NCBI GenBank assembly: GCA_963698885.1
Contig: CAVOSJ010000006.1
Span: 325,186 to 389,185 of the forward strand
Source: Nitrospirota bacterium
Lineage (GTDB): Bacteria > Nitrospirota > JACRHJ01
Length of the DNA: 64,000 nt
Direction of reading: 5' to 3'
Of this stretch, positions 4,759 through 51,211 are shown piece after piece. A program made the position numbers and the translations under genes. How positions within the stretch are numbered: the first letter of the stretch is position 1; every line of letters begins with the position of its first letter. The notes below the pieces were generated by a model. The model did not search any database, had not been told where the DNA came from, and saw only the letters and a program-made list of their open reading frames with translations.

Positions 4759-5364
4759 ATGCCCGAAAAAAAGGAAACCTTCTTCGCCCATCCGACCGCA
4801 GTCGTCGACCAGCCCGCGGATATCGGCGAGGGGACGTCCATCTGGCACTTCACGCACGTGATGAAGGACTGCAGGATCGGCCGCTCATGCAACATCGGCC
4901 AGAACGTGGTCATATCGCCGGGCGTGAAGGTCGGGGATAAGGTGAAGATACAGAATAACGTCTCGGTCTACACCGGCGTGGTGCTGGAAGACGGCGTCTT
5001 CTGCGGCCCTTCCATGGTGTTCACGAACGTGATGAACCCGAGAAGCTACGTATCCCGGCGTGACGAATATAAAGAGACGCTGGTAAAGGAAGGCGCGACC
5101 CTGGGCGCGAACTGCACCGTGGTCTGCGGGCATACCATAGGGAGGTTCGCATTCGTCGGAGCGGGCGCGGTGGTCACGAAGGACGTGCCGGACTACGCCC
5201 TGGTGGTCGGGAATCCGGGCCGGATAATCGGGTACATGTGCGAGTGCGGCGCCAGGCTCTCTTTTAATGGAGAAGAAGCGGATTGCCCGGCCTGCGGCGC
5301 GTCGTATGAAAAGAGAAGCGGAAGAGTAGAGAGGAGGCAAAAAATTGAAAGTACCGTTGCTTGA
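4759..5364 (+). CDS. hexapeptide-repeat N-acetyltransferase (WbpD-like)
   Basis: ATG at 4759 gives [18 protein letters not shown]...; left-handed beta-helix hexapeptide repeats ([44 protein letters not shown]). Confidence 0.75.
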
Positions 5365-6467
5365 CCTGAAAGCGCAATACAGCACCATTAAAGAAGACGT
5401 TATCGGCGCCATGATGGAGGTGCTGGAGGCCCAGCATTTCATCCTCGGGCCGAAGGTTACGGAACTGGAGCGGCAGGTCGCCCAGTACTCGGAAACCAAG
5501 TGGGGAATAGGCGTATCCTCCGGAAGCGACGCCCTCATCATATCCCTGATGGGTCTTGAGGTAGGCCAGGGTGATTATGTCATCACCACGCCGTATACCT
5601 TTTTCGCCACGGCCGGCGCGGCCGCAAGAGTGGGCGCAATCCCCGTGTTCGCGGACATCGACCCGAAAACATATAATATCGACCCGGCAAAAATAGCCGA
5701 GGCGGCCGCAAAGATACCCAAGGGTAAACTGAAGGCGATAATACCGGTGCATCTCTACGGCCAGTGCTGCGACATGGACGGGGTCATGGAAGTCGCGCGC
5801 GAATACGGCGCGGCGGTAATCGAGGACGCGGCCCAGGCGATAGGCGCAAGGGACCGCCACGGCCGCCCGGCCGGGAGCATCGGGGATACCGGGTGCTTCT
5901 CGTTCTTCCCCAGCAAGAACTTGGGCTGCTTAGGTGACGGCGGGATGGTGGTGACAAGCCGCGACGAGCCTGAAGGACAAGCTGACCATACTCCGCGCGC
6001 ATGGAAGCAGTCCCAAATATTTCCATAAGATAATCGGCGGCAATTTCCGCCTGGACGCCCTCCAGGCGTCGGTGCTCTCGGTGAAGCTCAGGCACCTGGA
6101 CCTCTGGAGCGAGAAGAGGCAGGAAAACGCGGACCTGTACAACATGCTGCTTGCCGATGCCGGGCTTCCGGTCGAGACGCCGTATATAGAAGAAGGATGC
6201 CGGCATATATTCAATCAATACGTAATCCGGGCGAAGGACAGGGACCTCTTAATGAACTTCCTGAAGGAAAAAGGAGTCGGTTCGGAGGTGTATTATCCCC
6301 TTCCGATGCACCTTCAGGAGTGTTTTAGCTATCTGGGGTATAAAGAAGGCGATTTCCCCGAAAGCGAGAAGGCCGCAAGACAGACCCTCGCGCTGCCGGT
6401 ATACCCGGAGCTCAGCTCGGACGCGATAGCCTACGTCGTGGAGCGGATAAAGGAATTTTACGCTTAA
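5345..6467 (+). CDS. DegT/DnrJ/EryC1/StrS-family PLP-dependent sugar aminotransferase (WbpE-like); one apparent +1 indel near 5960
   Basis: ORFs 5345..6028 and 6072..6467 are the N- and C-terminal parts of one aminotransferase (LLDLKAQY..., ...GDGGMVVT then [32 protein letters not shown] in a shifted frame); AGGAGG RBS upstream. Confidence 0.8.
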
Positions 6468-10256: not shown

Positions 10257-10291
10257 CGGGAATTAAAGAAACGGCTATGGCGGAAATAGAA

Positions 10292-11447
10292 TTAACGCGG
10301 CTTTTCGGCGGACTCAAGCGCCCGCTCAAGGTCCTCTACGAGGTCATTTGCGTCTTCGATTCCCACGGAGAGCCTGACTGTGCCCTCGGTTATCCCGCGG
10401 GCGAGTTTCTCCGCTGCGGGCAGCGGCCCGTGGCTCATCGTCCACGGATGCCCGGCCAGCGACTCCACCCCCCCGAGGCTTTCGGCCAATGAAAATACCC
10501 TTAGGCTGTCTAAAAAAACCTTGGCCGCCGGGAGACCGCCCTTAAGCCGCACCGTCACCATGCCCCCGAAACCCCGCATCTGGGATTTTGCGACCGCATG
10601 GCCGGGATGGCCCTGTAAGCCCCGGATAATATACTTCCTCCGCCAGGGGGTGCGCCGTCAGGAAGCGCGCGACGGCAAGGGCGTTGGCTTCGTGCTGGCG
10701 CATCCGAACCGCGAGCGTCTTTAATCCCCTTAGCGCAAGCCAGCAGTCGAAAGGCCCGGGCACCGCCCCGGCAAGCCGAAGGTATAGCTGGACCTTCTGA
10801 AATATTTCCTGGTTTGAAGTTATTACCGCGCCGCCGATTAAGTCCGAGTGTCCCCCGATGTACTTGGTAGTGGAATGTACCACCACGTCCGCACCCAGTT
10901 CCAGCGGGTTCTGGAAGTAAGGCGTGGCAAACGTGTTGTCCACTACTAAAGGGATGGAGAGGGTCTTGCACCTCAGGGCGATAGCGCGTATATCCGAAAT
11001 CCCGAGTAACGGGTTGGCCGGAGACTCAAGCCACACCATCGCCACCGTCTCGTCTATCTTCGAGATGAATGAGCCCGTGTCGGACGAGCCGGCATAGACC
11101 GCGGTTATCCCGTTCTTTGCAAGCAGCCTGTCGAATATCCCATAGGTCCCGCCGTAGAGGTCTTCACAGACCAGCGCCTTCTCACCCGGCTGCAGCACGG
11201 AGAGCACGGCCATGGACGCAGCCTGGCCGGACGCGAAAGCGACGCAGGATTTTGCGCCTTCAAGTTCGGCAAGGCATGTCTCAAGGGCAGTCCGGGTCGG
11301 GTTCGCCACCCGCGAGTACTCATATCCCCGGTGCTTTCCAAGTTCGAGATGGGTAAAGGTGGAGGTCTGGTAAATGGGTACGACCGTCGCACCCGCAGCC
11401 TCGTCCGGCTCCTGCCCCGCGTGGATCGCCTTTGTCTCGAAACGCAT
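10292..11447 (-). CDS. PLP-dependent Cys/Met-metabolism enzyme (cystathionine gamma-synthase / O-acylhomoserine sulfhydrylase family); one apparent frameshift near 10560-10620
   Basis: ORF 10542..11447 (MRFETKAIHAGQ..., HSTTKYIGGHSD) plus ORF 10292..10579 (MRGFGGMVTVRLKGG...) together form the full-length fold. Confidence 0.8.
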
Positions 11448-13527: not shown

Positions 13528-13588
13528 GCATCACTTAAATCTGGACGCACTGCAGTCCGCTTTAGCAATAAGTTTAGGAGTGCATTTG

Positions 13589-15487
13589 ATGGTCCTCGGC
13601 TTCTTAGGAAGCGGAAAGTTCAAGTGGGGGCTTATCGGCGCTTTAGCAGGCGTTGCGGCCCCCATTTTCTTTTTCATCCTCCAGCCTTCCGTACAAAACC
13701 GTGGCACGTTGTTCGCCTTGGGCGTCGCCTTATGCTCTGCCTGGGCGGTTGGCCTGGGCGGGCTTCTTTTTGGCCACCTCCGGGACGGGGACCTTAAGTA
13801 CCGCCAAAAGATGGAGCTCCGGGAAAAAGAGGTCACGGTGCTGGAGTCTCTTTCCGAAGCGATGTCCGGCACGAAAAACCTGGATTCGCTCCTACACTCC
13901 GCGCTCCGCGAGACCATCGAGTTTTCTTTTTTAAACGGCCTCACGAGATGCGCCGCGTTCGTGAAGGAATCGGCGGACGGGCCGCTCAAGCTTGCCGCGA
14001 AGATAGACAGGGACCCCAGGCTGGGCTCGTTTGAGAAAGATATAGAAGCCTGGAAGAGCCTGTGCGGCATTGCCGCCGAGACCGGCGAGATGATCATCTG
14101 TCCGGACGCCTCCAAAGACGAGCGGGTGCCTTCCGCGGAGCCGAGGGGATATGTCGCGGTCCCGCTGAAAAGCGCCGACAGAGTCCTGGGCGTCCTGGTT
14201 TACTGTCTGCCTGAAAATAGCACTCCCACATTCGAAGATGCGAAGCCGCTCTTTGCCGCCGCGGCCAGGATATGCTCATACGCCGAAAACCTCATGCTCT
14301 CCGGCCAGGCGCTCATGGTCTCCGAAGACATGGCGAAAAACGAACAGACGCTGGCTAAGAAGGTGGCCCAGCTCCATTCGCTGGTGGAGGTTGACCGCAT
14401 CATCCTCTCCACCATGGACAGAGACGAGATGCTGCACAAGGTCAGCGTGCAGATACGTACCCTCGTCCCGGCGGACCTTGGCGGCGTCGCGTTATGCGAC
14501 CCGGAGACCGGCGACTTCCGCTACATCGGCGGCTGGGGGATGGAGATACGAAACCGCGAGATACTTCAGACCTCGGACTGGCTGGGCAGCCCGGTCTTAA
14601 ACCGGGGGAAGCCGATGACGAGGAAGAATATCGACGAGGATATAATCCTCTCTCCCTTCGACAAGCTCCTGCACGAGTTGGGGGTGAAGTCGGACCTGTA
14701 CGCCCCCATCATCCGTAAGGGGAAGACGGTGGGGATATTCTTTCTCGGGTGCTTCAGGGAGGGCGCTTTTAACATGGAGGACGTGGATACCACCGTGGTC
14801 TTCGCCTCCAGGATGGGCCTCGCCTTAGAGCACGTCCGGCTCATCTACGACTTAGATGAGATGTCGGTGAACATCATCCATGCCCTGGCCTCCGCCATCG
14901 ACGCCAAAAGCTCGTGGACGAAAGGCCATTCGGAGCGCGTCTCCGATTACTCCCTGGCGATCGCCGAACGGATGGGCATGGCAAAACGCGAAATAGAGCG
15001 CCTACGTCTGGCCGGCCTCCTGCACGATATCGGCAAGATCGGGACGTACGACGTACTGCTGGACAAGACCGGCAGGCTGACGGACGAGGAATGGGAGCTT
15101 ATCAAGCTCCACCCGTCAAGGGGCTGCGAGATACTCGAACCTATAACGGAGTTCCGGGACATCCTTCCCGCCGTCAGGCACCACCACGAGCGCTGGGACG
15201 GCACCGGCTACCCGTCCGGGCTTCGCGGAGAGGCCATACCCCTCATGGCGCGCATCCTCACCGTCGCTGACTCGTTCGACACCATGACCGCGGACAGGCC
15301 GTACCGCTCCGCTATCGGCGTAACCAACGCCATACAGGAAATCCGTTACTGCACCGGGACGCAGTTCGCACCCGATGTCGCGGACGTATTCCTCCGGCTC
15401 GTCACGGAAAAGGGGGCGGACCTGAACCTGCTTCGGCAGAATGCAACCCACAGAGGCGCCTTCCCCGCCGCTTCCGGAACGTTATAA
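13589..15487 (+). CDS. membrane-anchored GAF-domain HD-GYP phosphodiesterase (c-di-GMP signalling)
   Basis: N-terminal TM helices, GAF region, C-terminal HD-GYP core (LAGLLHDIGKIG, HHERWDGTGYP); ATG at 13589 is 10 nt after AGGAG. Confidence 0.85.
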   Translation: MVLGFLGSGKFKWGLIGALAGVAAPIFFFILQPSVQNRGTLFALGVALCSAWAVGLGGLLFGHLRDGDLKYRQKMELREKEVTVLESLSEAMSGTKNLDSLLHSALRETIEFSFLNGLTRCAAFVKESADGPLKLAAKIDRDPRLGSFEKDIEAWKSLCGIAAETGEMIICPDASKDERVPSAEPRGYVAVPLKSADRVLGVLVYCLPENSTPTFEDAKPLFAAAARICSYAENLMLSGQALMVSEDMAKNEQTLAKKVAQLHSLVEVDRIILSTMDRDEMLHKVSVQIRTLVPADLGGVALCDPETGDFRYIGGWGMEIRNREILQTSDWLGSPVLNRGKPMTRKNIDEDIILSPFDKLLHELGVKSDLYAPIIRKGKTVGIFFLGCFREGAFNMEDVDTTVVFASRMGLALEHVRLIYDLDEMSVNIIHALASAIDAKSSWTKGHSERVSDYSLAIAERMGMAKREIERLRLAGLLHDIGKIGTYDVLLDKTGRLTDEEWELIKLHPSRGCEILEPITEFRDILPAVRHHHERWDGTGYPSGLRGEAIPLMARILTVADSFDTMTADRPYRSAIGVTNAIQEIRYCTGTQFAPDVADVFLRLVTEKGADLNLLRQNATHRGAFPAASGTL

Positions 15488-31837: not shown

Positions 31838-32813
31838 TCAGAATGACAGGTTCACGGCCTCCCGCACTTCCTCCATCGTCTCCCCCGCGACCTTGCGGGC
31901 GGTCTCTGCCCCGGCCTTCAGCATCTCACGCGTCTCGTCCTCACGGCCTGTCAGCGCGGCCCTTTTCTCCCGGAATGGCGCAAGGTAAGTGCTTAATATT
32001 TCGGCTAAATAGCTCTTGTGCTTCACGCAGCCAAGCCTTCCGGCCCGGCAGCCCTCATCGGCTAAAGGCGCGTCATTTGGCCCGAACGCCTTGTGGTAGT
32101 CCTGGACGGAGCAGATGTCCGGGTCGCCCGGGTCGGTCGCGTGGATTTTCTTAGGGTCCGTAATGAGTTGCATCACTTTCGGCTTCAATCTCTTCCGGCG
32201 GCTCGTCCAAAAAAATGGCGTTATTCAAGGACTTGGACATCTTCCGGCCGTCCGTGCCCGGCAGCTTCGGGGTCTGTGTCAGGAGCGCCTTCGGCTCCGG
32301 AAAAACCTGTTTATACCGATGGTTAAACGCCCTCGCGATCTCTCTGGCAAGCTCGATATGCGGGACCTGGTCAACCCCAACCGGCACCGCGCCCGCCTTG
32401 TATAACATTATGTCCGCCGCCTGAAGCACCGGGTATCCCATCAGGCCGTAGTTCACGCCATGTAAGTGCATGTCTTCAATCATGTTTTTTAGCGTCGGGT
32501 CCCGCTCCAGCCAGGGCATGGGGGTAATCATCCCGAAAAGGAGATAAAGCTCCGCATGCTCCTTCACATCGGACTGGACGAATACCGTCGAGCGGGAGAA
32601 ATCGATACCCAGCGCCCGCCAATCCAAAGCCATTTCCATAATGTTTTTAGGAAGTTCGGAGGTATCGGCGTAGGCGGTGGTCAGGGCGTGCCAGTCGGCG
32701 GCCATGAAAAAACATTCATACTCTTCCTGCAACGATAGCCAGTTGCCGAGCGCGCCGACTAAGTGCCCGATATGCAGTCTGCCGGTAGGCCGCATCCCGG
32801 ATAAGAGCCTCAT
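31838..32813 (-). CDS. trpS: tryptophan--tRNA ligase; one apparent frameshift near 32160-32190
   Basis: ORF 32151..32813 has class-I aaRS HIGH (TGRLHIGH) and KMSKS motifs; the C-terminal anticodon-binding part continues in ORF 31838..32188. Confidence 0.9.
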
Positions 32814-38871: not shown

Positions 38872-39486
38872 TTACGCCGCCCTTCCCAGGGCCTCATCCA
38901 GTTTCAGGGATGTCTGAAGGCGCTTCTCCACCACGTTCCAGTCTATGTTCTGGAAGAACGCGTCAAGGTATGCCGCGCGCTTTACGCCGTAGTCTATCAT
39001 GTAGGCGTGCTCATAGACGTCCAGTATCAGAAGCGGGATCTCATTCCAGATAGCGCCGATATCGTGCATATCCATCATGTAGTTGTGCAAAGTGTTGTCG
39101 TTCATGCTCCAGGAGAGCACGGCCCAGCCGCGTCCGGACATTCCGACCGCCTTGAACTGTGCCATCCAGTTATCGAACGAACCCCAGCGCTCTTTTATCA
39201 TCTCCGCTATCCTGCCGCCTGGCGCGCCTCCCTTGCCGCCGAGGTTCTCGAAATACCACTCGTGCAGAAAAACGGCGTTTGTCGTAAAGGACTTCTCCTT
39301 GAACATCTCCCGGATAACGGCGTAAGTGGCGTTTGCGCCTTCGGTCGGCGCTTTTTTTATCTCTTCCTCAAACATGTTCAATTTATCCACGTATCCCTTA
39401 TAGAGCACGTCCCTGTGCTCCTGGATCTGCCTGTCGGAAATGCCCTTGAGTTTACCTTCCAGCTTGAATTCCTTTACTTTGTGCAT
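38872..39486 (-). CDS. Fe/Mn-family superoxide dismutase-like protein
   Basis: about 204 aa; SOD-like blocks incl. DVYEHAYMIDYG (variant of the DxWEHAYY signature); AGGA RBS before internal ATG 39486. Confidence 0.65.
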   Translation of the reverse strand: MHKVKEFKLEGKLKGISDRQIQEHRDVLYKGYVDKLNMFEEEIKKAPTEGANATYAVIREMFKEKSFTTNAVFLHEWYFENLGGKGGAPGGRIAEMIKERWGSFDNWMAQFKAVGMSGRGWAVLSWSMNDNTLHNYMMDMHDIGAIWNEIPLLILDVYEHAYMIDYGVKRAAYLDAFFQNIDWNVVEKRLQTSLKLDEALGRAA

Positions 39487-39728
39487 GATTGTACCGTCCT
39501 TTCTAATACGCGAGGCTAAGACAAAAAAGAAATGCGGCAAGGATTCTGCCGCAGGCGGCCGACTTCAAAAAGTATAACAAAGATTTAAGCAGTGTCAATT
39601 TTATAGAACAATTTTAAGTATTTTGATTAATAGGCGCGACTTGCGGACGGTAAAAATCCGTGGTATAAATTTATACAAAGGAATTTATTTTTATTGACGG
39701 TGCAATTCCGTTGCCTGAAGGAGACCTT

Positions 39729-41262
39729 ATGGAGCATAACCCCTCAACCCGGAACCAGGAAGTAAATGACCGTAGACTGCTTGAGGCGAGCCTCGACCCG
39801 ATCGTGGCGATAAACCTGGAAGGCAAGTTCGCCTACGTCAATGAGGCTATGGTAAGGGTCACGGGCATCCAGAGGGACGCCCTCATCGGGTCGGACCATT
39901 ACGGCTATCTTAACCGAGCCCGAAAAGGGGAAGGAGGGCCTTCTGCAGGCTATAACGAAAGGGTCCATCACCGACTATCCCCTGACCTTCAAGCACACGG
40001 ACGGGCACCTGACGGACGTACTTTGCAACGCCTCCGTTTACCGCGATGAAGAGGGCAAAGTCGCCGGCATCTTCGCGGAGGTAAGAGATATTACCGAGAG
40101 AAAAAGGGCCGAAGAGGCCCTCCGAGAGGCCGAAGCATATAACAGGAGCCTGCTGGAGGCGAGCCTCGACCCGCTCGTGGCAATAAATCTGGAGGGCAAG
40201 TACGTGTACGTCAACGAGGCTACGGAGAAGGTCACGGGCCTTTCGAGGGACGCTCTGATAGGGTCGGACTTCACAGGCTACTTCACCGAGCCCGAAGAGG
40301 CGAGAAAGGGTTACTTGCTGGTTTTTGCGACAGGGTCCGTCACCGACTATCCCCTCACCATCCGGCACAAGGACGGGCATCTGACGGACCTGCTTTGCAA
40401 CGCCTCCGTTTACCGCGATGAATGGGGCAAAGACGCCGGCATCTTCGCGGTGTCGAGAGATATTACCGAGAGAAAACGGGCCGCCGAGGCTCTTCGAGAG
40501 GCCGCAGCGTATAACAGAAGCCTGCTGGAGGAGGTAAGAAAATTAAACCTGGAGCTGGAGCAGAGGGTACGCGACCGGACTGCCCAGTTAGAGTCCGCCA
40601 ACTGCGAACTGGAATCCTTCAGCTACTCGGTCTCCCACGACCTGCGCGCGCCCCTTCGGAGCCTGGACGGCTTTTCCCAGGCCATCCTGGAGGAATATTC
40701 GGACAGGTTAGATGAAAAAGGGAAAGACTACCTGGGAAGGATCCGGCTTGCCAGCCAGAGGATGGGCCATCTTATAGACGACATGCTGAAGCTATCCCGG
40801 GTGACAAGGAGCGAGATGCGCTTTGAAAACGTGGACCTGACGGGGATTGCGAGAGAAATAGGAGATGAACTGAGTAGGGCGGAGCCGGGGCGCAAGGTCG
40901 AATTCATTATAGAAGAAGGCGTCACGGCATGGGGCGACTTGCCGCTGCATGCGGATGGTTATGCAGAACCTGCTGTCGAATTCCTGGAAATTCACATCCA
41001 GGCACGAGAAGGGGGTAATACAGTTCGGCGTCTCGGAGATGGGGGGGAAGAAAATTTATTTCGTGAAGGACGACGGCGCCGGTTTTGACATGGACTATCC
41101 GACAAACTCTTTACCCCATTCCAGCGTCTGCATTCCACGGCGGAGTTTCCGGGGACGGGCATTGGCCTCGTAATCGCAAAAAGGATTCTAAAGCGGCACG
41201 GGGGCGAAATCTGGGCTACGGCGAAACCGGAAAAAGGGGCGACCTTTTATTTCTCATTTTGA
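39729..41262 (+). CDS. tandem-PAS sensor histidine kinase (PAS-PAS-HisKA-HATPase_c); at least three apparent indels (near 39912, 40940, 41108)
   Basis: ORFs 39711..40049, 40177..41088, 40949..41173 and the frame ending at 41262 piece together into one kinase (H-box [13 protein letters not shown]; G-box GTGIGL). Confidence 0.8.
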
Positions 41263-41274
41263 AAGGGGGCAGGT

Positions 41275-41736
41275 ATGGCGGACAGGGAAATATTGCTGGT
41301 GGAGGATAACCCGGACGACGTCGAGCTTACGCTTCGCTCGTTCAAGGCAAACAACATTTGCAATAAAGTCGTTATCGCCCAGGACGGCGCGCAAGCGCTT
41401 GATTTTCTTTTCAGCACGGGCGCATATTCCGGGAGCAGCAGCAGACTGCCCCAGCTCGTGCTGCTTGACCTTAACCTGCCGAAGATATCGGGCCTGGACG
41501 TGCTGAAGCGCATCAGAAGCGACGAAAGGACAAAATGTCTGCCGGTAGTGATACTTACCTCCTCCAACGAGGAGAAAGACCTTATAACCGGCTACGCGCT
41601 GGGCGCAAACAGCTACGTGCGAAAGCCGGTGGATTTTGTCCAGTTCAACGAAGCCATAAAACAGCTCGGCCTCTACTGGCTTATCTTAAACGAATCGCTG
41701 CCGCAGACAAGGGAACCGAATGAAAAAGCCGCTTAG
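41275..41736 (+). CDS. single-domain response regulator (CheY-like receiver)
   Basis: 153 aa; LLVEDNPDD...LVLLDLNLP...receiver fold. Confidence 0.85.
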   Translation: MADREILLVEDNPDDVELTLRSFKANNICNKVVIAQDGAQALDFLFSTGAYSGSSSRLPQLVLLDLNLPKISGLDVLKRIRSDERTKCLPVVILTSSNEEKDLITGYALGANSYVRKPVDFVQFNEAIKQLGLYWLILNESLPQTREPNEKAA

Positions 41737-43723
41737 GGCATTGATTGTGGAAGACTCGGAAGACGACGCTATCTTAATGGCGGAGGAACTCCGGCGCGCG
41801 GGGTATGAGGTCTATTTCGAGAGGGTCGAGACGCCGGAAGAAATGTCCGAGGCCGCCCTGAGAGGGGGCTGGGACGTCATACTCTCGGATTACGTTATGC
41901 CCCGGTTCGACGGCCTGACGGCGCTTAAGCTCCTGAAGGAAAAGGGCCTCGATATCCCCTTCATCCTGGTTTCCGGAAAGATCGGCGAAGACACGGCTGT
42001 AGAGGCCATAAAGGCCGGGGCCTGCGATTATGTCATGAAGGACAGGATGGTAAAGCTCGCGCCCTCGGTGAAAAAGGCCCTCTCCGAGCACGAGTTGATG
42101 ATGGAAAGGGACCGGGCGCAGGAGGCGTTGAAGACCGAGCTGGAGGTATCCAACGCCCTGCTCAAGATGGCCGAGATAACGAGCGCGTCCCTTGACTGGG
42201 ACGAGACTGCGGATAAGGTGCTTCACGTCCTGAAGGGGATTATACATTTTGAGGGCGCGGCCGTGATGCTGGCGGAGGCGGACGGCACGCTGACCCCCAG
42301 GAAAGCGGTAGGTTGCGACGGCGGCATGCATTCCATGTTGATGGAGATGCGGCCAAGGCTGGCGGACGTCCCGGCGCTCGAGAAGGTGATGCTGACCAGG
42401 AAGCTTTTAAAAATAGGGGAAGAGGAGCTGCCCGGCCTCATCCCGGATTATATCGCGGCAAACCTGAAACTCAAGGAAGTGATTATTGCACCCGTTATGG
42501 CGAGGGAGCGAGTAGCCGGGTTCCTGGGGGTGAACTTTAAGAAAATCGGCGGCGATTCACGCGTCCCGGCCTTGATAAAGGGCATCGCGGACCAGCTTGG
42601 CGCGGCCTTTGAAAACGCCAGCCTTTACGAGGAGACCCAGAAGAAAAGGCTGGAGCTGGCAAAGGGTATGGAGGCGCTCAGGGTGCTGCATGAGATAGAC
42701 AGGATGATACTGTCCACTCTCGACAGGGACGAGATGCTGTCAAGGGTCTCGCTGCAGATAAAAAGGCTTATCCCGGCGGACGCGGGGTGCCTTTTACTGC
42801 TGGACGGGGAGGAGAAGACGCTTAGGGTAAACTGCGGCTGGGGTGCGGACTTTAAAAAAGACGAGCGGTTCATGCTGGACGGTTTCCCCGGCGCCGATAC
42901 GTTCCTTTCAGGCAGGCCGGTGATGAGGGCCGACGTCCTGAACGAGGCGAGGGAAAGCGGGGAGGATACCGTATTTCGTGACGCGGTAATCCGTTCCGAG
43001 ATAATCGTCCCGATAATGAGCAAGGGGACCGGACGGGGGCTGATCAGGCTCGGGAGCCAGAGGGTGGCGGGTTTCACTTTCGAGGATACGGCGACGGCTG
43101 AAAAACTGGCGTACCAGATAGGGATAGCGCTCGAGAATACGCGCCTGATAGCAGACCTGGAGGAGGTGTTGATAAACACAGTCCAGGCGCTTTCCTCCGC
43201 GATAGACGCAAAAAGCCACTGGACGCGCGGACATTCCACCCGCGTCACGGGCTATGCTGTGCGGGCTGGAAAAGAGCTGGGCCTTACAGACGAGCAGATG
43301 GAGAGGCTTAAGTTAGCTGGCCTTCTGCACGATATCGGGAAAATCGGGATACTGGATGCATTGCTGGACAAGCCGGGCGCGCTGACGATTGATGAGTACG
43401 AAGCGATTAAAAAACACTCCGACAGGGGGGCGGAGATACTCGCGCCCATAAGGCAGTTCAGGGATATCGTACCGTGCATACGCCACCACCACGAACGTTG
43501 GGACGGCAAAGGCTATCCCCTCCATCTGCAGGGAGAACAGATACCTTTCATGGCACGGATATTATCGGTCGCGGACTCTTTCGACTCCATCACCGCCGAC
43601 AGGCCTTACAGGAAGGCCAATGACAGGAACTTCGCTTTCGAGGAGCTTATGAAATGCTCGGGGACGCAGTTTGAGCCGAAGGTCGTGGACGCTTTCATCA
43701 GTATGCTGAAGGAGCCCGATTAG
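41720..43723 (+). CDS. response-regulator receiver + GAF + HD-GYP phosphodiesterase
   Basis: 667 aa; receiver (ALIVEDSEDD, ILSDYVMP), GAF region, HD-GYP core (LAGLLHDIGKIG, HHERWDGKGYP); paralogous to 13589..15487. Confidence 0.85.
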   Translation: MKKPLRALIVEDSEDDAILMAEELRRAGYEVYFERVETPEEMSEAALRGGWDVILSDYVMPRFDGLTALKLLKEKGLDIPFILVSGKIGEDTAVEAIKAGACDYVMKDRMVKLAPSVKKALSEHELMMERDRAQEALKTELEVSNALLKMAEITSASLDWDETADKVLHVLKGIIHFEGAAVMLAEADGTLTPRKAVGCDGGMHSMLMEMRPRLADVPALEKVMLTRKLLKIGEEELPGLIPDYIAANLKLKEVIIAPVMARERVAGFLGVNFKKIGGDSRVPALIKGIADQLGAAFENASLYEETQKKRLELAKGMEALRVLHEIDRMILSTLDRDEMLSRVSLQIKRLIPADAGCLLLLDGEEKTLRVNCGWGADFKKDERFMLDGFPGADTFLSGRPVMRADVLNEARESGEDTVFRDAVIRSEIIVPIMSKGTGRGLIRLGSQRVAGFTFEDTATAEKLAYQIGIALENTRLIADLEEVLINTVQALSSAIDAKSHWTRGHSTRVTGYAVRAGKELGLTDEQMERLKLAGLLHDIGKIGILDALLDKPGALTIDEYEAIKKHSDRGAEILAPIRQFRDIVPCIRHHHERWDGKGYPLHLQGEQIPFMARILSVADSFDSITADRPYRKANDRNFAFEELMKCSGTQFEPKVVDAFISMLKEPD

Positions 43724-44028
43724 CCGGCGTCTTTCTTTTCTTCTATCTCCGTTATTTTAATCCCGTCTTTAAAAAGAAAAGACTTCATTTCCTTCGCGAA
43801 AACGGGGTCGTTTCGCCGCACCCACTCAAGGAGCATCGCCGCGTGTTCCTTCTCCTCGTCCCGGTTGTGGGCGAGGATGCTCTTAAGCTCCTCGTCCTCC
43901 GTCGCGTCCACCCGCTGCTGGTACCAGTCTATCGCTTCCAGTTCCTCCACTATCGACCGAAGCGCCCTGTGTAGCTCTTTTGTCTTTCCGGTCAGCTTAT
44001 CTTCGCTTTCATGCAACAGGTATGGCAT
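43720..44028 (-). CDS. ferritin-like protein of the encapsulated-ferritin (EncFtn) type, without an adjacent encapsulin gene
   Basis: EELEAIDWYQQRVDATEDEELKSILAHNRDEEKEHAAMLLEWVRRND closely matches the EncFtn core as I recall it; AAGGAGG RBS 9 nt before ATG 44028. Confidence 0.6.
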   Translation of the reverse strand: MPYLLHESEDKLTGKTKELHRALRSIVEELEAIDWYQQRVDATEDEELKSILAHNRDEEKEHAAMLLEWVRRNDPVFAKEMKSFLFKDGIKITEIEEKKDAG

Positions 44029-44117
44029 GTGAGGGGGCCTCCTTTTCTTTTCAATTATAGCAGACGCCATGCCGGATTATTGTTTTTATTGAGGTAAGGT
44101 GTTATTATCCGGCTTAT

Positions 44118-47134: not shown

Positions 47135-48229
47135 TTATTTAATCTCGATTTCGGCTTCGGAAACTTTTACCGGCTCCGCGCTCTTTGCCGGTATCCCTAA
47201 CTTCGCGGCCGCGGCGGGGGTAACCAGCCGGTAATAAAGGGCGGCCTTAGCCTTCGCCGCACCCTTCGGCAGGTCGTATGTCAGCGCCCGCTCCTCGTGG
47301 TCTTTTATCCTTGAATCAAGCGCCTCTTTCGCCTCCCAGGTCGGCACGCCGACCTTGCCGTCCGCGCTGAATACGCGCATGAACAGCTCTTTCTGGCCGG
47401 CCGCGGGGGCGGGGCTCTCGAAGAGGGGCTTCCCCTCTTTATCGAGGACTAAAACTTTCAGATATGCCGCACGCATCGGGTTCGTGGACGGGAAAAAGTG
47501 CGGGTTGTCGTTTTTGACGATTACTATCAGCTTACCCATCTCCGCACCCAGGGAAAGGGAGATACCTTTCTTCAGCATCTCTTTATCATGTCCGCCCGGG
47601 AAAAAGTGGGAGTAGTGCGAGCTTTTAGCCGAGCCTTCGGCGGGCGGGCCCGCTTTTTCTTCCATGTGGCACTTGACGCAGTTTGAGTATCCTTCCAGGT
47701 CCGCGCTGCATATTACCGTCCCTTTGCCGTTCACCATCTTGCCGTGGCAGCCAAGGCACATCATGAACGGCTGGGCGAACGACCACTGGCTTACCTTGTG
47801 CGGCGCCTGCTGCGCCGAAGGAGCGGTTATGGTGGTGGCGAGGTTGTAGGTGTTGAACATTTTCCCTTCCGAAACGCCCTCGGCGCCGTGGCAGAACGTG
47901 CAGGGTATGCCTGGCATTGACGAAGAGGTCTTTGCCATGGCTTCCGACGCGGGGTTATGACAGCTTGCGCAGAAATAGGGCGCTTTTTTGCCCGTTTTGG
48001 CCATAGCCTGGGAAAATGCGGAGAAGACGGCGTTGTGGGCGGGATCGGAGGCCCTGGACGACTGCGCGTGCATGGACGCGCCCCACTCGTCATAGATGGT
48101 CTTATGGCACGGGGCGCAAGAGGCCGAATCCGCAAAACCCTTGAACCCCGCCGGATACTGGTGCGCAAATGCCCCGGAAGGCAGGATTGCCAGAAAAATA
48201 AAAGCCAACAGGATTTTGCCCGCCCTCAT
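47135..48229 (-). CDS. multiheme c-type cytochrome (five CxxCH motifs), secreted
   Basis: signal peptide MRAGKILLAFIFLAILPSGAFA; CAPCH, CASCH, CTFCH, CLGCH, CVKCH. Confidence 0.85.
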   Translation of the reverse strand: MRAGKILLAFIFLAILPSGAFAHQYPAGFKGFADSASCAPCHKTIYDEWGASMHAQSSRASDPAHNAVFSAFSQAMAKTGKKAPYFCASCHNPASEAMAKTSSSMPGIPCTFCHGAEGVSEGKMFNTYNLATTITAPSAQQAPHKVSQWSFAQPFMMCLGCHGKMVNGKGTVICSADLEGYSNCVKCHMEEKAGPPAEGSAKSSHYSHFFPGGHDKEMLKKGISLSLGAEMGKLIVIVKNDNPHFFPSTNPMRAAYLKVLVLDKEGKPLFESPAPAAGQKELFMRVFSADGKVGVPTWEAKEALDSRIKDHEERALTYDLPKGAAKAKAALYYRLVTPAAAAKLGIPAKSAEPVKVSEAEIEIK

Positions 48230-48522
48230 CCTTCGGTCTCCTCCTCAGCCTGTATCTTTACCTGGTCGCCGGGGTGGATCATCTCCTTGAACTCGGGCAT
48301 GACCTCCGCCGCGAGCGCGTAGTAGCTGCGCTGGTTCTTGATGAACCTGTCGGAGGTTTCGTCGTAGACCTTGTCGAAGAGGGTCGAGCCGCATGTCGGG
48401 CAGGTGATAACCGCATGGCCCCTCTCGTCAAAGCAGAGAAAAGACATCACGTGCGCCCCGCAGAGCCTGCACGGTGTTATAATGAGTTCCGGGCATGTAG
48501 TCATAACTATAAAGTCTATCAC
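48226..48522 (-). CDS. small Cys-rich (zinc-ribbon-like) protein, start overlapping the cytochrome gene (ATGA)
   Basis: CxxC...CxxC pairs (CRLCGAH...CPTCGSTL); 4-nt overlap with cytochrome start suggests translational coupling; start position uncertain. Confidence 0.4.
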   Translation of the reverse strand: MIDFIVMTTCPELIITPCRLCGAHVMSFLCFDERGHAVITCPTCGSTLFDKVYDETSDRFIKNQRSYYALAAEVMPEFKEMIHPGDQVKIQAEEETEG

Positions 48523-48680
48523 GAAAAAAAATCAGGTTCAACGTCAAATAAGCTTTATAGCCATATAAAAATGTGGTATTTGAAGGGGCCTGCATGGGCG
48601 GATCTACCGCAACGGGAAAATTGTCGTCACAGTGCATAAAATTTATTGACTGCGTATTTAGATTATGCGTAAATAATCAA

Positions 48681-49449: not shown

Positions 49450-50052
49450 TTGCAAATAACTCGCAACAAACCCGATGACAGCAAATTCAATCAAGAAGCT
49501 TTATTGCCATACGAACTGAGGCTGAACGACTTCGAAATGGCAATGCAAGATGTATACGACTTCTTCTATGATGTGAATTTATTTTTAACGAAGAAGGGGC
49601 TCTTAAGACTGGATGACATGCTCCGGCCCGCAATTATGTCCGGTGTGTTATCGGATATGCTTACCGCGAGTCTTGCTAAACATTCGCGGGTACTTAAGGA
49701 AAATAAATTTTTTAATGGTCATCCAGACCTCGTGGTACAGGGTATATATCCGGATAACGCAGTCAAGGCCGGGACGGAGGGTGTTGAAATAAAAAGTACG
49801 CGCAAGGCGGGTGGCGCTGTTGACACTCATGGCGCGAGAGATCAGTGGATGTGCGTATTCGTCTATGATATTGACTGCGTGACCGAACCTGCCGGAGACA
49901 GAACGCCAATGGCGTTCACGGAAATATATCTCGGCAAGGTAACAGTTGAAGATTTCAGGCGCAATCTCCGTGGCGAACTCGGCACCAGGACAGCCACCCT
50001 TCATCGTGAAGGGATTATAAAACTTCGCCAGAACTGGATATATCGGATTTAG
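49450..50052 (+). CDS. putative type II restriction endonuclease (PD-(D/E)xK-like)
   Basis: 200 aa; GHPDLVV ... EGVEIKSTRK fits PD...ExK spacing; convergent with and 3'-overlapping the adjacent DNA methyltransferase; TTG start after GGAGG. Confidence 0.55.
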   Translation: MQITRNKPDDSKFNQEALLPYELRLNDFEMAMQDVYDFFYDVNLFLTKKGLLRLDDMLRPAIMSGVLSDMLTASLAKHSRVLKENKFFNGHPDLVVQGIYPDNAVKAGTEGVEIKSTRKAGGAVDTHGARDQWMCVFVYDIDCVTEPAGDRTPMAFTEIYLGKVTVEDFRRNLRGELGTRTATLHREGIIKLRQNWIYRI

Positions 50053-51211
50053 CGTTTGATTTGAAATCCGTAAGTTTAGGAATTGCAGTACGCGCAATAT
50101 CGAAATAGTGACGGTCTTTTTCGATGCCGATACTTTGATAACCTATAGCTTCTGCGGCCGCAAGAGTTGACCCGGCCCCGGCAAACGGGTCAAGTATTAC
50201 TCCCTCCCCGAGCGGGAGGACGCCACGTATAACTTGCCGCAGAAATGCCTGTGGTTTAAGGCTTGGATGTGGTGCAAGGGCCCGCTCGTTTTTTTGGGTA
50301 GGCGCGGACTGTATCACGTCCCCGAAAGGCTTGTCCGCAGAAGGGCGGCGAAATCCGCCTGTTTTCCATTTTCTAAGATTATCCTGAGCTCTTCCTTCCA
50401 AAGGTTTTCGGAATAATATCCAAGGCTCCCACATTGAACGCGGCATTACGCTTATTTCCTCAAATTCAGTGTGAGCATGTTTCGGACGATCTCCCCCACG
50501 CATAGTCATTACTAGACGAATAATCTCGCCGCGTCTTTCCAGGCCGGCATCTGCCAAAGCATTAGATAGGATATATGAAAGAAGGGGGTTGGAAGCCACC
50601 AAGACGTTTGCGCCGGGTACGAGTTTCGGTAGCAGAAGCCTCGCCCAAACGAAGAAAAAGGCGCTCAATCGCTCACGCTGGTCATCCGTAAGAGTTGTAA
50701 ATCTAGGAAGCGGAGACCTCGTATGGCCATCAAAGGAAGGCGGAATACGCCAGACCCCCCCTTTTCGGTTACGCAATTTTAATTGTTGGTCAGGCGTATA
50801 TTCATGAAGTCCGTAAGGGGGGTCTGTTACCACCGCATGTATACTCTGATCCTGCCTCTTCTCAATCCAGTCAAAACAGTCTCCATGGTATAGAGTAGTT
50901 CTGCCTAATACAAATGGCTGTTCCATTTCGGAGTGATATGAAAAATCGCGATGCATTTCTCCGGCATGCTGTTGCCGGACGCGGTATACGCCTCGACCTT
51001 CTTTGATAAAAAGCGAGGGAGTATTAAGACGGAGATAAGACCGGACGGATGAAGCAGGGGTCGGCCCCATTATCTTGTTTATTCTTTCTTCAATTTGCAT
51101 AATGGAAAGCGCTTCGGAAGTTAGCGACAGCACTTGTAAGATGGCATCGCGCACGCGTCCGGGTGCATATCTTTTTTCGGTTGATTGCATGAATAAAATA
51201 TAAACGTCCAA
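50015..51211 (-). CDS. DNA methyltransferase, beta-class amino-methyltransferase (N6-adenine or N4-cytosine)
   Basis: 398 aa; motif IV DPPY (TDPPYG) precedes motif I FAGAGST. Confidence 0.85.
   Translation of the reverse strand: MDVYILFMQSTEKRYAPGRVRDAILQVLSLTSEALSIMQIEERINKIMGPTPASSVRSYLRLNTPSLFIKEGRGVYRVRQQHAGEMHRDFSYHSEMEQPFVLGRTTLYHGDCFDWIEKRQDQSIHAVVTDPPYGLHEYTPDQQLKLRNRKGGVWRIPPSFDGHTRSPLPRFTTLTDDQRERLSAFFFVWARLLLPKLVPGANVLVASNPLLSYILSNALADAGLERRGEIIRLVMTMRGGDRPKHAHTEFEEISVMPRSMWEPWILFRKPLEGRAQDNLRKWKTGGFRRPSADKPFGDVIQSAPTQKNERALAPHPSLKPQAFLRQVIRGVLPLGEGVILDPFAGAGSTLAAAEAIGYQSIGIEKDRHYFDIARTAIPKLTDFKSNAKSDISSSGEVL

What the first reader, a model, noticed from the sequence alone, without database searches (positions are those of the whole stretch)
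43720..44028. EncFtn-type ferritin-like protein with no encapsulin shell gene nearby
The protein carries the EncFtn core (EELEAIDWYQQRVD...ILAHNRDEEKEHAAM...LEWVRRND). Its neighbours are an HD-GYP regulator and a MidA-type methyltransferase, not an encapsulin, and its C-terminus (...ITEIEEKKDAG) does not resemble the Gly/Ser-Leu-rich cargo-loading peptides I know. It may be a free-standing ferroxidase or cargo for a shell encoded elsewhere.
Basis: partly seen in the sequence, partly recalled or inferred. Interest (0 to 1): 0.45.

Follow-up and report, generated by a model that had tools for sequence, protein, structure and literature searches.

The report
Short shell-less EncFtn-type ferritin-like protein
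This is a real, well-conserved 102-residue gene for an "encapsulated-ferritin"-type iron-oxidising protein that has no shell-targeting tail and no shell gene nearby; such short forms are already recognised in the literature and common in nature, but nobody has yet tested what they do.

Summary
Window 43720-44028 (minus strand) encodes a 102-aa protein that passes the curated cut-offs of Pfam EncFtn-like (E=1.3e-39) and NCBIfam TIGR04535. It is about 60% identical to solved EncFtn decamers and keeps every ferroxidase-centre residue. It ends where the conserved domain ends (…YLFxxGxITEIEE…), which is where shell-loaded relatives continue into a linker and a …LGIGSLKG-type targeting peptide. No Family 1 encapsulin, other capsid-like Pfam family, or classical ferritin was found in the 64-kb window.

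Across 80 reference-genome loci the split is nearly clean. All 14 loci with a shell directly downstream have long tails; 12 of them carry a clear targeting peptide. All 65 short forms (93-104 aa) have neither. The one other locus, L046, has a TP-like tail but no shell nearby.

The short class is already named "s-FLP" (PDB 3k6c, NE0167; Eren et al. 2024), so this is a new member of a known, functionally untested kind. It belongs to a "KITEIEE"-tailed subgroup common in Nitrospirota and Acidobacteria-like metagenomes.

The most likely function is a free-standing decameric ferroxidase used in iron and oxidative-stress defence. Its neighbours in three lineages are Fe-SOD, a rubrerythrin operon and a NUDIX hydrolase. 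A shell encoded elsewhere in the genome could not be excluded.

The parts
43720..44028 (-). Coding sequence of the short EncFtn-type ferritin-like protein (102 aa plus TAA stop). Ferroxidase-centre residues are E29, Y36, E59 and H62; entry-site residues are E28, E31 and W35; exit-site residues are H54, E58 and E61.
   Evidence: ORF and translation. Pfam and NCBIfam. PDB matches and residue correspondence to R. rubrum EncFtn. These residues are invariant in a 35-sequence alignment. AF2 model with Foldseek. dN/dS 0.05-0.25.
43723..43773 (-). C-terminal tail FLFKDGIKITEIEEKKDAG. This is the conserved end of the EncFtn domain followed by only about 5 residues, with no linker and no targeting peptide.
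   Evidence: TP-bearing relatives carry the same YLFTEGxITExEE segment and then 15-40 more residues ending in ..LGIGSLKG or ..SVGSLRGG. The TP regex finds nothing in this tail, in any other short-form locus, or in the 120 closest database proteins.
44038..44042 (-). GGAGG ribosome-binding site 9 nt upstream of the ATG at 44028.
   Evidence: Read directly from the sequence. Conserved as AAGGAG in relatives L004 and L005.
44054..44062 (-). TGCTATAAT, an extended -10-like promoter element. This is an inference only. If used, the transcript would start downstream of the alternative ATG at 44070.
   Evidence: Sequence. The same TGCTATAAT is present in L005 although the surrounding DNA cannot be aligned. 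The consensus scan instead flagged a different weak site at 44105-44076. Neither site has been tested.
41720..43723 (+). Convergent neighbour: a response-regulator-GAF-HD-GYP protein (667 aa). Its stop codon overlaps the EncFtn stop at 43720-43723. The arrangement is conserved in the Nitrospirota lineage, but a functional link is not shown.
   Evidence: Pfam. The same convergent arrangement occurs in 6 of 6 Nitrospirota loci, down to 78% EncFtn identity.
38872..39486 (-). Fe/Mn superoxide dismutase (204 aa), on the same strand as the EncFtn gene and 4.2 kb away. This is a lineage-conserved neighbour and counts only as context for an oxidative-stress role.
   Evidence: tblastn gives 98.5% identity over 204 aa. 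Sod_Fe_C appears in the precomputed annotation. It lies within 2.1-4.2 kb in 6 of 6 Nitrospirota loci.

Best explanation
The gene encodes a free-standing member of the EncFtn family, meaning one that is not loaded into a shell. By homology it forms a two-helix hairpin that pairs into four-helix-bundle dimers with a di-iron ferroxidase centre at the dimer interface, and five dimers form a ring-shaped decamer.

Without a shell it cannot hold a mineral core. Its most likely job is catalytic: oxidising cytosolic Fe(II) with O2 or H2O2 so that less Fenton chemistry occurs. That would make it part of the cell's oxidative-stress and iron-detoxification equipment, not an iron store. It appears to be transcribed from its own promoter as a single gene.

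Shown here: family membership, fold, an intact active site, absence of a targeting peptide, absence of a shell gene in the window, strong purifying selection, and the family-wide link between peptide and adjacent shell. Inferred: the decamer, ferroxidase activity, the choice of oxidant, the physiological role, and the absence of a shell elsewhere in the genome.
For: Family and fold:
- Pfam, NCBIfam and PDB matches place it in the EncFtn family.
- The AF2 model (pLDDT 82.5) has helices at 14-42, 46-73 and 75-86. All top Foldseek hits are EncFtn structures, TM 0.63-0.78.

Active site:
- All ferroxidase, entry-site and exit-site residues defined for R. rubrum EncFtn (PMC5012862) are present and invariant across 35 clade members.

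No targeting peptide:
- The protein stops about 5 residues after the conserved domain end. TIGR04535 model positions 96-114 are unmatched.

Peptide and shell travel together:
- 14 of 80 reference loci have a Family 1 shell directly downstream, and all 14 have 111-138 aa proteins with long tails. Twelve have a clear TP, one has a near-TP, and one is probably frameshifted.
- All 65 short reference loci, the window and 7 further sampled loci have no shell within the DNA held, up to 10 kb each side and less where contigs are short.

Selection:
- dN/dS is 0.05-0.25 with dS up to about 2 among Nitrospirota orthologues.
- The 120 closest database clusters are almost all 97-106 aa; the 9 longer calls mostly end in the same short tail, and none has a TP.
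- 51 of the top 150 representatives at 50% clustering are short without a TP, against 35 with a clear TP.

Stress-related contexts arose independently:
- Fe-SOD lies nearby in 6 of 6 Nitrospirota loci.
- The gene sits inside the rubrerythrin-RFO-DUF3501 operon in 7 proteobacterial loci. That operon is described as oxidative-stress defence in PMC5114695.
- It forms a co-directional NUDIX-sFLP-DUF2007 unit in 6 of 6 Acidobacteria-like loci.

Published biochemistry:
- Isolated EncFtn proteins oxidise Fe(II) without a shell but do not store mineral (PMC5012862, PMC11202242).
- The short homologue NE0167 crystallises as a decamer (3k6c, as described in PMC11202242).
Against: - Only the 64-kb window and +-10 kb of related loci could be searched, so a shell elsewhere in the genome is not excluded.
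- Secondary cargo encoded away from the shell gene is known (10.1101/085266), although that cargo carries targeting peptides.
- The review PMC11202242 notes that a short tail would not sterically prevent encapsulation, because archaeal fusion forms use an 8-residue connector.
- Published assays show that the shell greatly enhances EncFtn activity, and that free EncFtn yields insoluble Fe(III). This makes a purely free ferroxidase look wasteful unless a partner takes the product.
- Most short-form loci (about 55 of 74) show no recognisable stress-gene neighbour, and each conserved context may simply reflect synteny within one lineage.
- No expression or biochemical data exist for any member of this subgroup.
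Confidence: 0.55

Rival explanations
1. It is cargo after all. A shell encoded elsewhere in the genome would take it up, either through a non-canonical contact such as the conserved ...GxITEIEE end or the ring surface, or by co-assembly with a TP-bearing EncFtn paralogue into mixed decamers.
For: Secondary cargo encoded away from shell operons exists (10.1101/085266). L046 carries a TP-like tail (LHIGRL) with no shell within +-10 kb, so distant cargo genes do occur in this family. PMC11202242 regards encapsulation of s-FLPs as sterically possible and lists the tail as a 'putative' TP. The window's tail IKITEI loosely fits the hydrophobic spacing of the review's consensus [LF]x[VI]xx[LI].
Against: The ITEIEE segment is also present in TP-bearing proteins upstream of their real TP, so it belongs to the domain and is not a loading signal. 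In most clade members the first hydrophobic position of that pattern is Gly or Lys. None of the 73 short-form loci examined (72 plus the window) has a shell or a second EncFtn gene nearby. Short forms account for about as much family diversity as TP forms, or more, which is not expected for accessory cargo.
Confidence: 0.2
2. It works with a different partner and not alone. It could hand Fe(III) to a classical ferritin or bacterioferritin. It could act with a lineage-specific neighbour such as rubrerythrin/RFO/DUF3501 or DUF2007. Or it could serve as an iron or redox buffer or sensor tied to the adjacent HD-GYP c-di-GMP regulator, since HD-GYP enzymes are themselves iron-dependent.
For: The gene is tightly embedded between RFO and DUF3501, with gaps of 0-21 bp on the RFO side and 0-13 bp on the DUF3501 side in six of the seven loci (271 bp in L038). 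The NUDIX-sFLP-DUF2007 arrangement is conserved and co-directional in 6 loci. The convergent, stop-overlapping HD-GYP gene is conserved in 6 of 6 Nitrospirota loci, even where the MidA gene has moved away.
Against: No partner is shared across lineages. No Bfr, FtnA or Dps homologue was found in the window or in any of 89 loci, using seed sequences validated against the PDB. Convergent orientation argues against co-transcription with the HD-GYP gene. Each association is confined to one lineage and may be plain synteny.
Confidence: 0.17
3. It is a decaying remnant: a truncated cargo gene left behind after loss of an encapsulin operon, or an assembly artefact in an error-prone long-read MAG.
For: The window does contain several frameshift-split genes, for example the PAS histidine kinase at 39711-41173 and DegT at 5345-6467.
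Against: The ORF is intact and its protein is identical in two other assemblies, one of them short-read. dN/dS is 0.05-0.25. Length and tail are conserved in hundreds of database clusters across phyla. All catalytic residues are invariant.
Confidence: 0.03

Closest known systems
s-FLP / NE0167 of Nitrosomonas europaea (PDB 3k6c; class named in Eren et al. 2024, PMC11202242; 'non-targeted Flp' in Giessen & Silver 2017)
   Same: Short EncFtn-family protein (95 vs 102 aa) with no long disordered tail and no targeting peptide. It is the best PDB sequence match (E=1.5e-30, about 62% identity) and has an identical ferroxidase motif. Shell-less genomic context is shared with the other 95-aa, NE0167-type reference loci; NE0167's own locus was not examined.
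   Different: The tail differs...FLFKDGIKITEIEEKKDAG here, against the review's s-FLP consensus LFTD(E/N)KPIAHE. A neighbour-joining tree of the core domain, with no support values, puts the window with a separate 'KITEIEE' group (Nitrospirota, Acidobacteria-like, Abyssobacteria) and apart from the proteobacterial NE0167 group, with TP-bearing forms between them. Genomic contexts also differ.
Classical encapsulated ferritin (FLP-TP), e.g. R. rubrum Rru_A0973 (5da5) and H. ochraceum EncFtn (5n5f)
   Same: Same Pfam and NCBIfam family, about 58-60% identity over the structured domain, and the same predicted fold. The residues E31/E32/E34/W38/Y39/H57/E61/E62/E64/H65 are all conserved, and the ...YLFTEGxITxIE domain end is shared.
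   Different: It lacks the 15-40 residue linker and the SLGIGSLK-type targeting peptide, and it is not followed by an encapsulin gene.
Archaeal Flp-encapsulin fusions (P. furiosus 2e0z/5n5e)
   Same: Contain an EncFtn-type domain, detected weakly by sequence at E=2e-5 to 5e-4.
   Different: In those proteins the domain is covalently fused to the shell protein. Here it stands alone in a bacterium, with only distant sequence similarity.
Other shell-independent di-iron ferritin-superfamily antioxidants (rubrerythrin, Dps)
   Same: Proposed working analogy only: a di-iron carboxylate site that consumes O2 or H2O2 while oxidising Fe(II), encoded next to oxidative-stress genes. Some short EncFtn genes lie inside a rubrerythrin operon.
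   Different: No family membership: none of the Pfam or NCBIfam matches listed is to rubrerythrin or Dps. The subunit is a half-bundle that needs dimerisation, it forms no cage (Dps does), and it has no rubredoxin domain.

Membership tests
EncFtn family (Pfam PF22277; NCBIfam TIGR04535) | Profile match above the curated cut-off | tested here: met
   PF22277 scores 134.3 bits against a cut-off of 27, covering profile positions 2-85 of 85. TIGR04535 scores 131.2 bits against 125, but only model positions 2-95 of 114 are matched.
EncFtn family (Pfam PF22277; NCBIfam TIGR04535) | Two long antiparallel helices plus a short third helix (half of a four-helix bundle) | tested here: met
   The AF2 model has mean pLDDT 82.5 and helices at 14-42, 46-73 and 75-86. 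The top 50 Foldseek PDB hits are all EncFtn structures, TM 0.63-0.78.
EncFtn family (Pfam PF22277; NCBIfam TIGR04535) | Ferroxidase-centre ligands Glu/Glu/His plus the nearby Tyr (R. rubrum E32, E62, H65, Y39) and the HxxxEExEH motif | tested here: met
   The window protein has E29, E59, H62 and Y36, and the motif H54-NRD-E58-E59-K-E61-H62. All are invariant in 35 clade members. Residue roles are from PMC5012862 and PMC11202242.
EncFtn family (Pfam PF22277; NCBIfam TIGR04535) | D5 decameric ring and ferroxidase activity | not testable with these tools
   Inferred only, from about 60% identity to the decameric structures 3k6c and 5da5.
Family 1 encapsulin cargo ('encapsulated' ferritin, FLP-TP) | C-terminal targeting peptide (consensus [LF]x[VI]xx[LI], typically ..LGIGSLKG or ..SVGSLRGG) after a flexible linker | tested here: not met
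   The protein ends 5 residues after the conserved ITEIEE domain end, and the TP regex is negative. The positive controls behave as expected: 12 of 14 shell-adjacent relatives match.
Family 1 encapsulin cargo ('encapsulated' ferritin, FLP-TP) | Encapsulin shell gene in the same operon, directly downstream | tested here: not met
   The query was T. maritima encapsulin, validated as 100% identical to 3dkt. An iterated HMM over six-frame translations finds 14 shells in reference loci and none in the window, L001, L003-L005 or L083-L089. Pfam annotation of the window shows no capsid-like family.
Family 1 encapsulin cargo ('encapsulated' ferritin, FLP-TP) | A shell encoded anywhere in the genome, and physical encapsulation | not testable with these tools
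The stored copy of the encapsulin census supplement is truncated and has no Nitrospirae entry in the part held.
s-FLP (short ferritin-like protein class; Eren et al. 2024) | EncFtn-type domain of about 95-100 aa with no long disordered C-terminus and no apparent targeting peptide | tested here: met
   102 aa; the tail extends 16 residues beyond the YLF motif, of which 11 are the conserved domain end. The class definition is in PMC11202242.
s-FLP (short ferritin-like protein class; Eren et al. 2024) | C-terminal consensus LFTD(E/N)KPIAHE, listed in the review as characteristic of NE0167 homologues | tested here: not met
   The window has LFKDGIKITEIEEKKDAG. This places it in a second short subgroup, not the NE0167 subgroup.

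The most novel reading that the evidence does not exclude
Short EncFtn proteins, this one included, would be a large and ancient shell-independent branch of the 'encapsulated ferritin' family. They would act as soluble decameric ferroxidases or peroxide scavengers in the cytosol, and would have been recruited independently into at least three oxidative-damage gene neighbourhoods: Fe-SOD in Nitrospirota, the aerobic rubrerythrin-RFO-DUF3501 operon in Proteobacteria, and a NUDIX unit in Acidobacteria-like bacteria. If so, the family name and the automatic annotation 'encapsulin-associated ferritin-like protein' would be misleading for roughly 40% of the family's sequence diversity, and encapsulation would be a specialisation and not the default state.
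Probability: 0.45. Interest if true: 0.45.

Novelty: new member of a known kind. Interest (0 to 1): 0.3.

Why it matters
EncFtn proteins are usually described as needing an encapsulin shell to work as an iron store. A large, strongly conserved group of family members that has neither a targeting peptide nor an adjacent shell raises two questions: what does a ring-shaped ferroxidase do on its own, and was encapsulation the ancestral or a derived state? The practical consequence is for annotation. PGAP and NCBIfam name these proteins 'encapsulin-associated', which can lead to false inference of nanocompartments in Nitrospirota, Acidobacteria and many Proteobacteria. For this particular window the result is modest: an ordinary member of an already noted but biochemically untested class.

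Tried and rejected
- Alternative start at 44070 (116 aa): rejected, because homologue N-termini and the RBS support 44028.
- The tail as a new targeting peptide: rejected, because TP-bearing relatives have the same ITExEE segment upstream of their true TP.
- MidA-type methyltransferase as a functional partner: rejected. The adjacency is lost in the 78%-identical locus L084, while HD-GYP and SOD stay.
- A universal conserved neighbour of short forms: none found. The two biggest 'neighbour' clusters were antisense shadow ORFs of the EncFtn gene itself.
- Linkage to Bfr, FtnA or Dps: no hit in the window or in 89 loci. This was single-sequence phmmer, so very divergent ferritins could be missed.
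- Fur/PerR-type operator upstream: the intergenic DNA aligns only among near-identical relatives, so comparison has no power. An imperfect CCGGATAAT...ATAATCCGG inverted repeat was seen but not pursued.
- Genome-wide shell co-occurrence from the Andreas & Giessen 2021 supplement: the stored file is truncated, so the result is inconclusive.
- PMC11518796 (Pasteurella PMCNA_RS00975) looked like a study of an EncFtn but concerns a prophage capsid-like protein, so it is irrelevant.
- Literature searches for functional work on NE0167 or shell-less EncFtn found only the 2024 review. The Annual Review article PMC9944552 is not held.
- The NJ tree rests on 84 columns with no support values, so the 'two independent short clades' reading is only suggestive.
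- The window is not the same contig as L001, L003 or L083 (94-97% nucleotide identity). Their precomputed annotations were therefore used only as corroboration.
Full report
**Observation**

The feature is real. On the minus strand, 43720-44028 is an intact ORF: ATG at 44028-44026, TAA stop at 43722-43720. It encodes 102 aa, from MPYLLHESEDKL... to ...FLFKDGIKITEIEEKKDAG. A longer reading from the ATG at 44070 is possible on paper. However, homologue N-termini align to the 44028 start, and a GGAGG lies 9 nt upstream of that start. An extended -10-like TGCTATAAT at 44062-44054 would put the transcript start downstream of the 44070 ATG; this is inference only. The same protein sequence is encoded on two other public assemblies, one of them short-read. 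This matters because the window carries several frameshift-split genes typical of long-read MAGs.

**Identity**

- The protein matches Pfam EncFtn-like (PF22277) at E=1.3e-39.
- It passes the curated cut-off of NCBIfam TIGR04535, 'encapsulin-associated ferritin-like protein', with 131.2 bits against 125. Only model positions 2-95 of 114 are matched.
- The best solved relatives are NE0167 of Nitrosomonas europaea (3k6c, E=1.5e-30) and the R. rubrum and H. ochraceum encapsulated ferritins at about 1e-27 to 1e-29.
- An AlphaFold2 model built from a 35-sequence alignment (mean pLDDT 82.5) has the expected two long helices plus a short one. Its top 50 Foldseek hits in the PDB are all EncFtn structures.
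- Mapping through the alignment to R. rubrum EncFtn gives three sets of residues. The ferroxidase centre is E32/E62/H65/Y39, which corresponds to window E29/E59/H62/Y36. The entry site is E31/E34/W38, corresponding to E28/E31/W35. The exit site is H57/E61/E64, corresponding to H54/E58/E61. All are present and invariant in the clade. Residue roles are from PMC5012862 and PMC11202242.
- Among Nitrospirota orthologues dN/dS is 0.05-0.25 with dS up to about 2.

This is therefore a functional gene under strong constraint and not a remnant.

**The C-terminus**

The 120 closest protein clusters in a 5.8-billion-sequence database are almost all 97-106 aa. The 9 longer calls mostly end in the same tail...YLF-x-x-G-K-ITEIEE plus 3-5 residues.

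The decisive comparison came from 80 loci fetched from species-representative genomes. I searched them for Family 1 encapsulin with an iterated profile. The seed was the T. maritima shell sequence, which I had first validated as 100% identical to 3dkt.

| Group | Reference loci | Protein length | Tail | Shell within the held flanks |
|---|---|---|---|---|
| Shell directly downstream | 14 | 111-138 aa | long; 12 end in ...LGIGSLKG / ...SVGSLRGG-type peptides, one has a near-match (GSLGLGG), one looks frameshifted | yes |
| Short forms | 65 | 93-104 aa | no targeting peptide | none |
| L046 | 1 | 117 aa | TP-like (LHIGRL) | none within 10 kb |

The window has neither a peptide nor a shell. The peptide-bearing proteins also contain the ...YLFTEGxITExEE segment and then continue into a linker. 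The window's tail is therefore just the conserved end of the domain, not a new loading signal.

**No shell and no classical ferritin in the window**

- The encapsulin profile finds nothing in the six-frame translation of all 64 kb, even at E<=100 with filters off.
- Pfam annotation of the window's ORFs shows housekeeping genes: GlmS, sugar-nucleotide enzymes, MreB/MreC/PBP2/RodA, RNase G, pirin, TrpRS, 2-oxoacid dehydrogenase, aconitase, Fe-SOD, a two-component system, TatA/TatC, a porin and others. Every ORF retained in the greedy map (>=90 aa) was scanned; the small ones left out are mostly overlapping or frameshift pieces, and a few gave no hit. There is no capsid-like family and no ferritin, Bfr or Dps (with corroboration).
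- PDB-validated Bfr, FtnA and Dps seeds also found nothing in the window or in any of 89 loci.

**Context**

The window is about 94-97% identical at the DNA level to contigs of Nitrospirota MAGs.

- *Nitrospirota lineage.* The EncFtn gene is always convergent with a response-regulator-GAF-HD-GYP gene whose stop codon it overlaps, and an Fe-SOD gene lies 2-4 kb away on the same strand. This holds in 6 of 6 loci, down to 78% protein identity.
- *Wider 'KITEIEE' clade.* The five Acidobacteria-like contigs sampled, plus L006, show a co-directional FBPase-NUDIX-sFLP-DUF2007 block next to the mraZ/dcw cluster.
- *Proteobacteria.* In seven loci a short EncFtn sits between RFO and DUF3501 of the 'aerobic-type rubrerythrin' operon. 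PMC5114695 describes that operon as oxidative-stress defence and does not mention this gene.

No partner is shared across lineages. Most short-form loci show a solitary gene.

**How common the short form is**

An exhaustive profile search of 1.84 billion cluster representatives found 1,563 family members at E<=1e-3. I classified the best 150 as follows:

| Class | Count |
|---|---|
| Short, no targeting peptide | 51 |
| Long tail with a clear targeting peptide | 35 |
| Long tail without a strict motif (peptide variants or frameshifted calls) | 33 |
| Fragments | 32 |

Short forms are therefore a major part of the family and not a rarity. A neighbour-joining tree of the core domain (84 columns, no support values) separates a proteobacterial NE0167-type group (95 aa...KPIAHE) from the window's KITEIEE group, with peptide-bearing forms between them. 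I treat this as only suggestive.

**What is already known**

- Eren et al. 2024 (PMC11202242) define 's-FLP' as shorter FLPs with no long disordered C-terminus or apparent targeting peptide, typified by 3k6c. They note that such proteins were first classed as non-encapsulated by Giessen & Silver 2017, that 3k6c is a decamer, and that it is unclear whether they are encapsulated.
- Giessen & Silver also mention non-targeted Flps near archaeal systems.
- I found no functional study of any shell-less EncFtn in the held literature.
- Published biochemistry on truncated or isolated EncFtn shows ferroxidase activity without mineral storage, and enhancement of activity by the shell (PMC5012862, PMC11202242, PMC7762939).

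**Interpretation**

The best-supported reading (confidence about 0.55) is a free-standing decameric ferroxidase. It would lower cytosolic Fe(II) and reactive oxygen species rather than store iron. This fits four observations: the intact active site, the missing peptide, the absence of shells next to any short form, and the repeated placement beside SOD, rubrerythrin or NUDIX genes.

- The main rival (about 0.2) is loading into a shell encoded elsewhere by a non-canonical route. It cannot be excluded without the whole genome.
- A partner-dependent role (about 0.17) is suggested by the tight operon embedding in some lineages, but no common partner exists.
- A pseudogene or artefact explanation is effectively ruled out.

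**Verdict**

The case is, however, a new member of an already recognised, very widespread and biochemically untested class, belonging to a second tail-type subgroup. Interest is modest at 0.3. The wider question has more value: whether 'encapsulated ferritins' are often not encapsulated at all. It could be tested directly by the genome-wide co-occurrence analysis and the simple biochemistry listed under next steps.

Noticed in passing
L009, L029, L038, L050, L051, L060, L080 (EncFtn gene at about 10001-10270 in most; e.g. L038 8035-11143): In seven proteobacterial reference loci a short EncFtn gene lies between the RFO (CCG-domain Fe-S oxidoreductase) and DUF3501 genes of the 'aerobic-type rubrerythrin' operon RBR-RFO-DUF3501. 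The intergenic gaps are 0-21 bp in most. The paper that defined this operon (PMC5114695) does not mention an EncFtn-like member.
   Followed up: partly
L006, L085-L089 (e.g. L087 8365-10588): A conserved, co-directional FBPase_3 - NUDIX - short EncFtn - DUF2007 block lies immediately upstream of the mraZ/rsmH/ftsL/PBP/mur (dcw) cluster in all six Acidobacteria-like loci sampled. NUDIX, sFLP and DUF2007 may form one operon.
   Followed up: partly
window 43720-43723: The stop codons of the EncFtn gene (minus strand) and the convergent RR-GAF-HD-GYP gene (plus strand) overlap, leaving no room for a terminator between them. The same tail-to-tail overlap occurs in 6 of 6 Nitrospirota loci, so the two transcripts may overlap at their 3' ends.
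   Followed up: partly
window 39711-41173; 5345-6467; 10292-11447; 31838-32813: Several genes are split by frameshifts: a PAS histidine kinase in three pieces, a DegT aminotransferase, a Cys/Met PLP enzyme and TrpRS. The relative L083 has at least the histidine kinase intact. This is consistent with indel errors of a long-read assembly and not with real pseudogenes.
   Followed up: partly
window 13580-15487 (+): A second GAF-GAF-HD-GYP protein (635 aa, no receiver domain, N-terminal hydrophobic segment) is encoded 26 kb from the first. The genome seems rich in HD-GYP c-di-GMP phosphodiesterases.
   Followed up: no
window 49450-51211: An N6/N4 DNA methylase (398 aa, minus strand) lies next to a 200-aa ORF with no Pfam match. 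DNA similarity to relatives L001, L003 and L083 drops or breaks here (83-89% or no alignment, against 94-97% elsewhere). This suggests a variable restriction-modification-like insertion.
   Followed up: no
window 47135-48229 (-) and 48274-48639: A 364-aa multihaem cytochrome (Cytochrome_C554, C7-like, several CxxCH motifs) with a signal peptide lies 3 kb from the EncFtn gene. It is conserved in the same position in L001, L083 and L084, preceded there by a small ORF of 72-94 aa.
   Followed up: no
L046 10001-10336: An Acidimicrobiales EncFtn (117 aa) ends in a TP-like ...SLHIGRLEE but has no encapsulin within +-10 kb. It may be a secondary cargo gene encoded away from its shell.
   Followed up: no
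window 44070-44117 (intergenic, between the EncFtn and MidA-type genes): An imperfect inverted repeat, CCGGATAAT-N21-ATAATCCGG, lies in the 89-bp divergent promoter region. It is conserved only in near-identical relatives, so nothing can be said about function.
   Followed up: no
Database annotation of P0005 and P0021: NCBI names shell-less short homologues 'encapsulin-associated ferritin-like protein', because they just pass the TIGR04535 cut-off. The name implies a nanocompartment that the loci do not show.
   Followed up: yes
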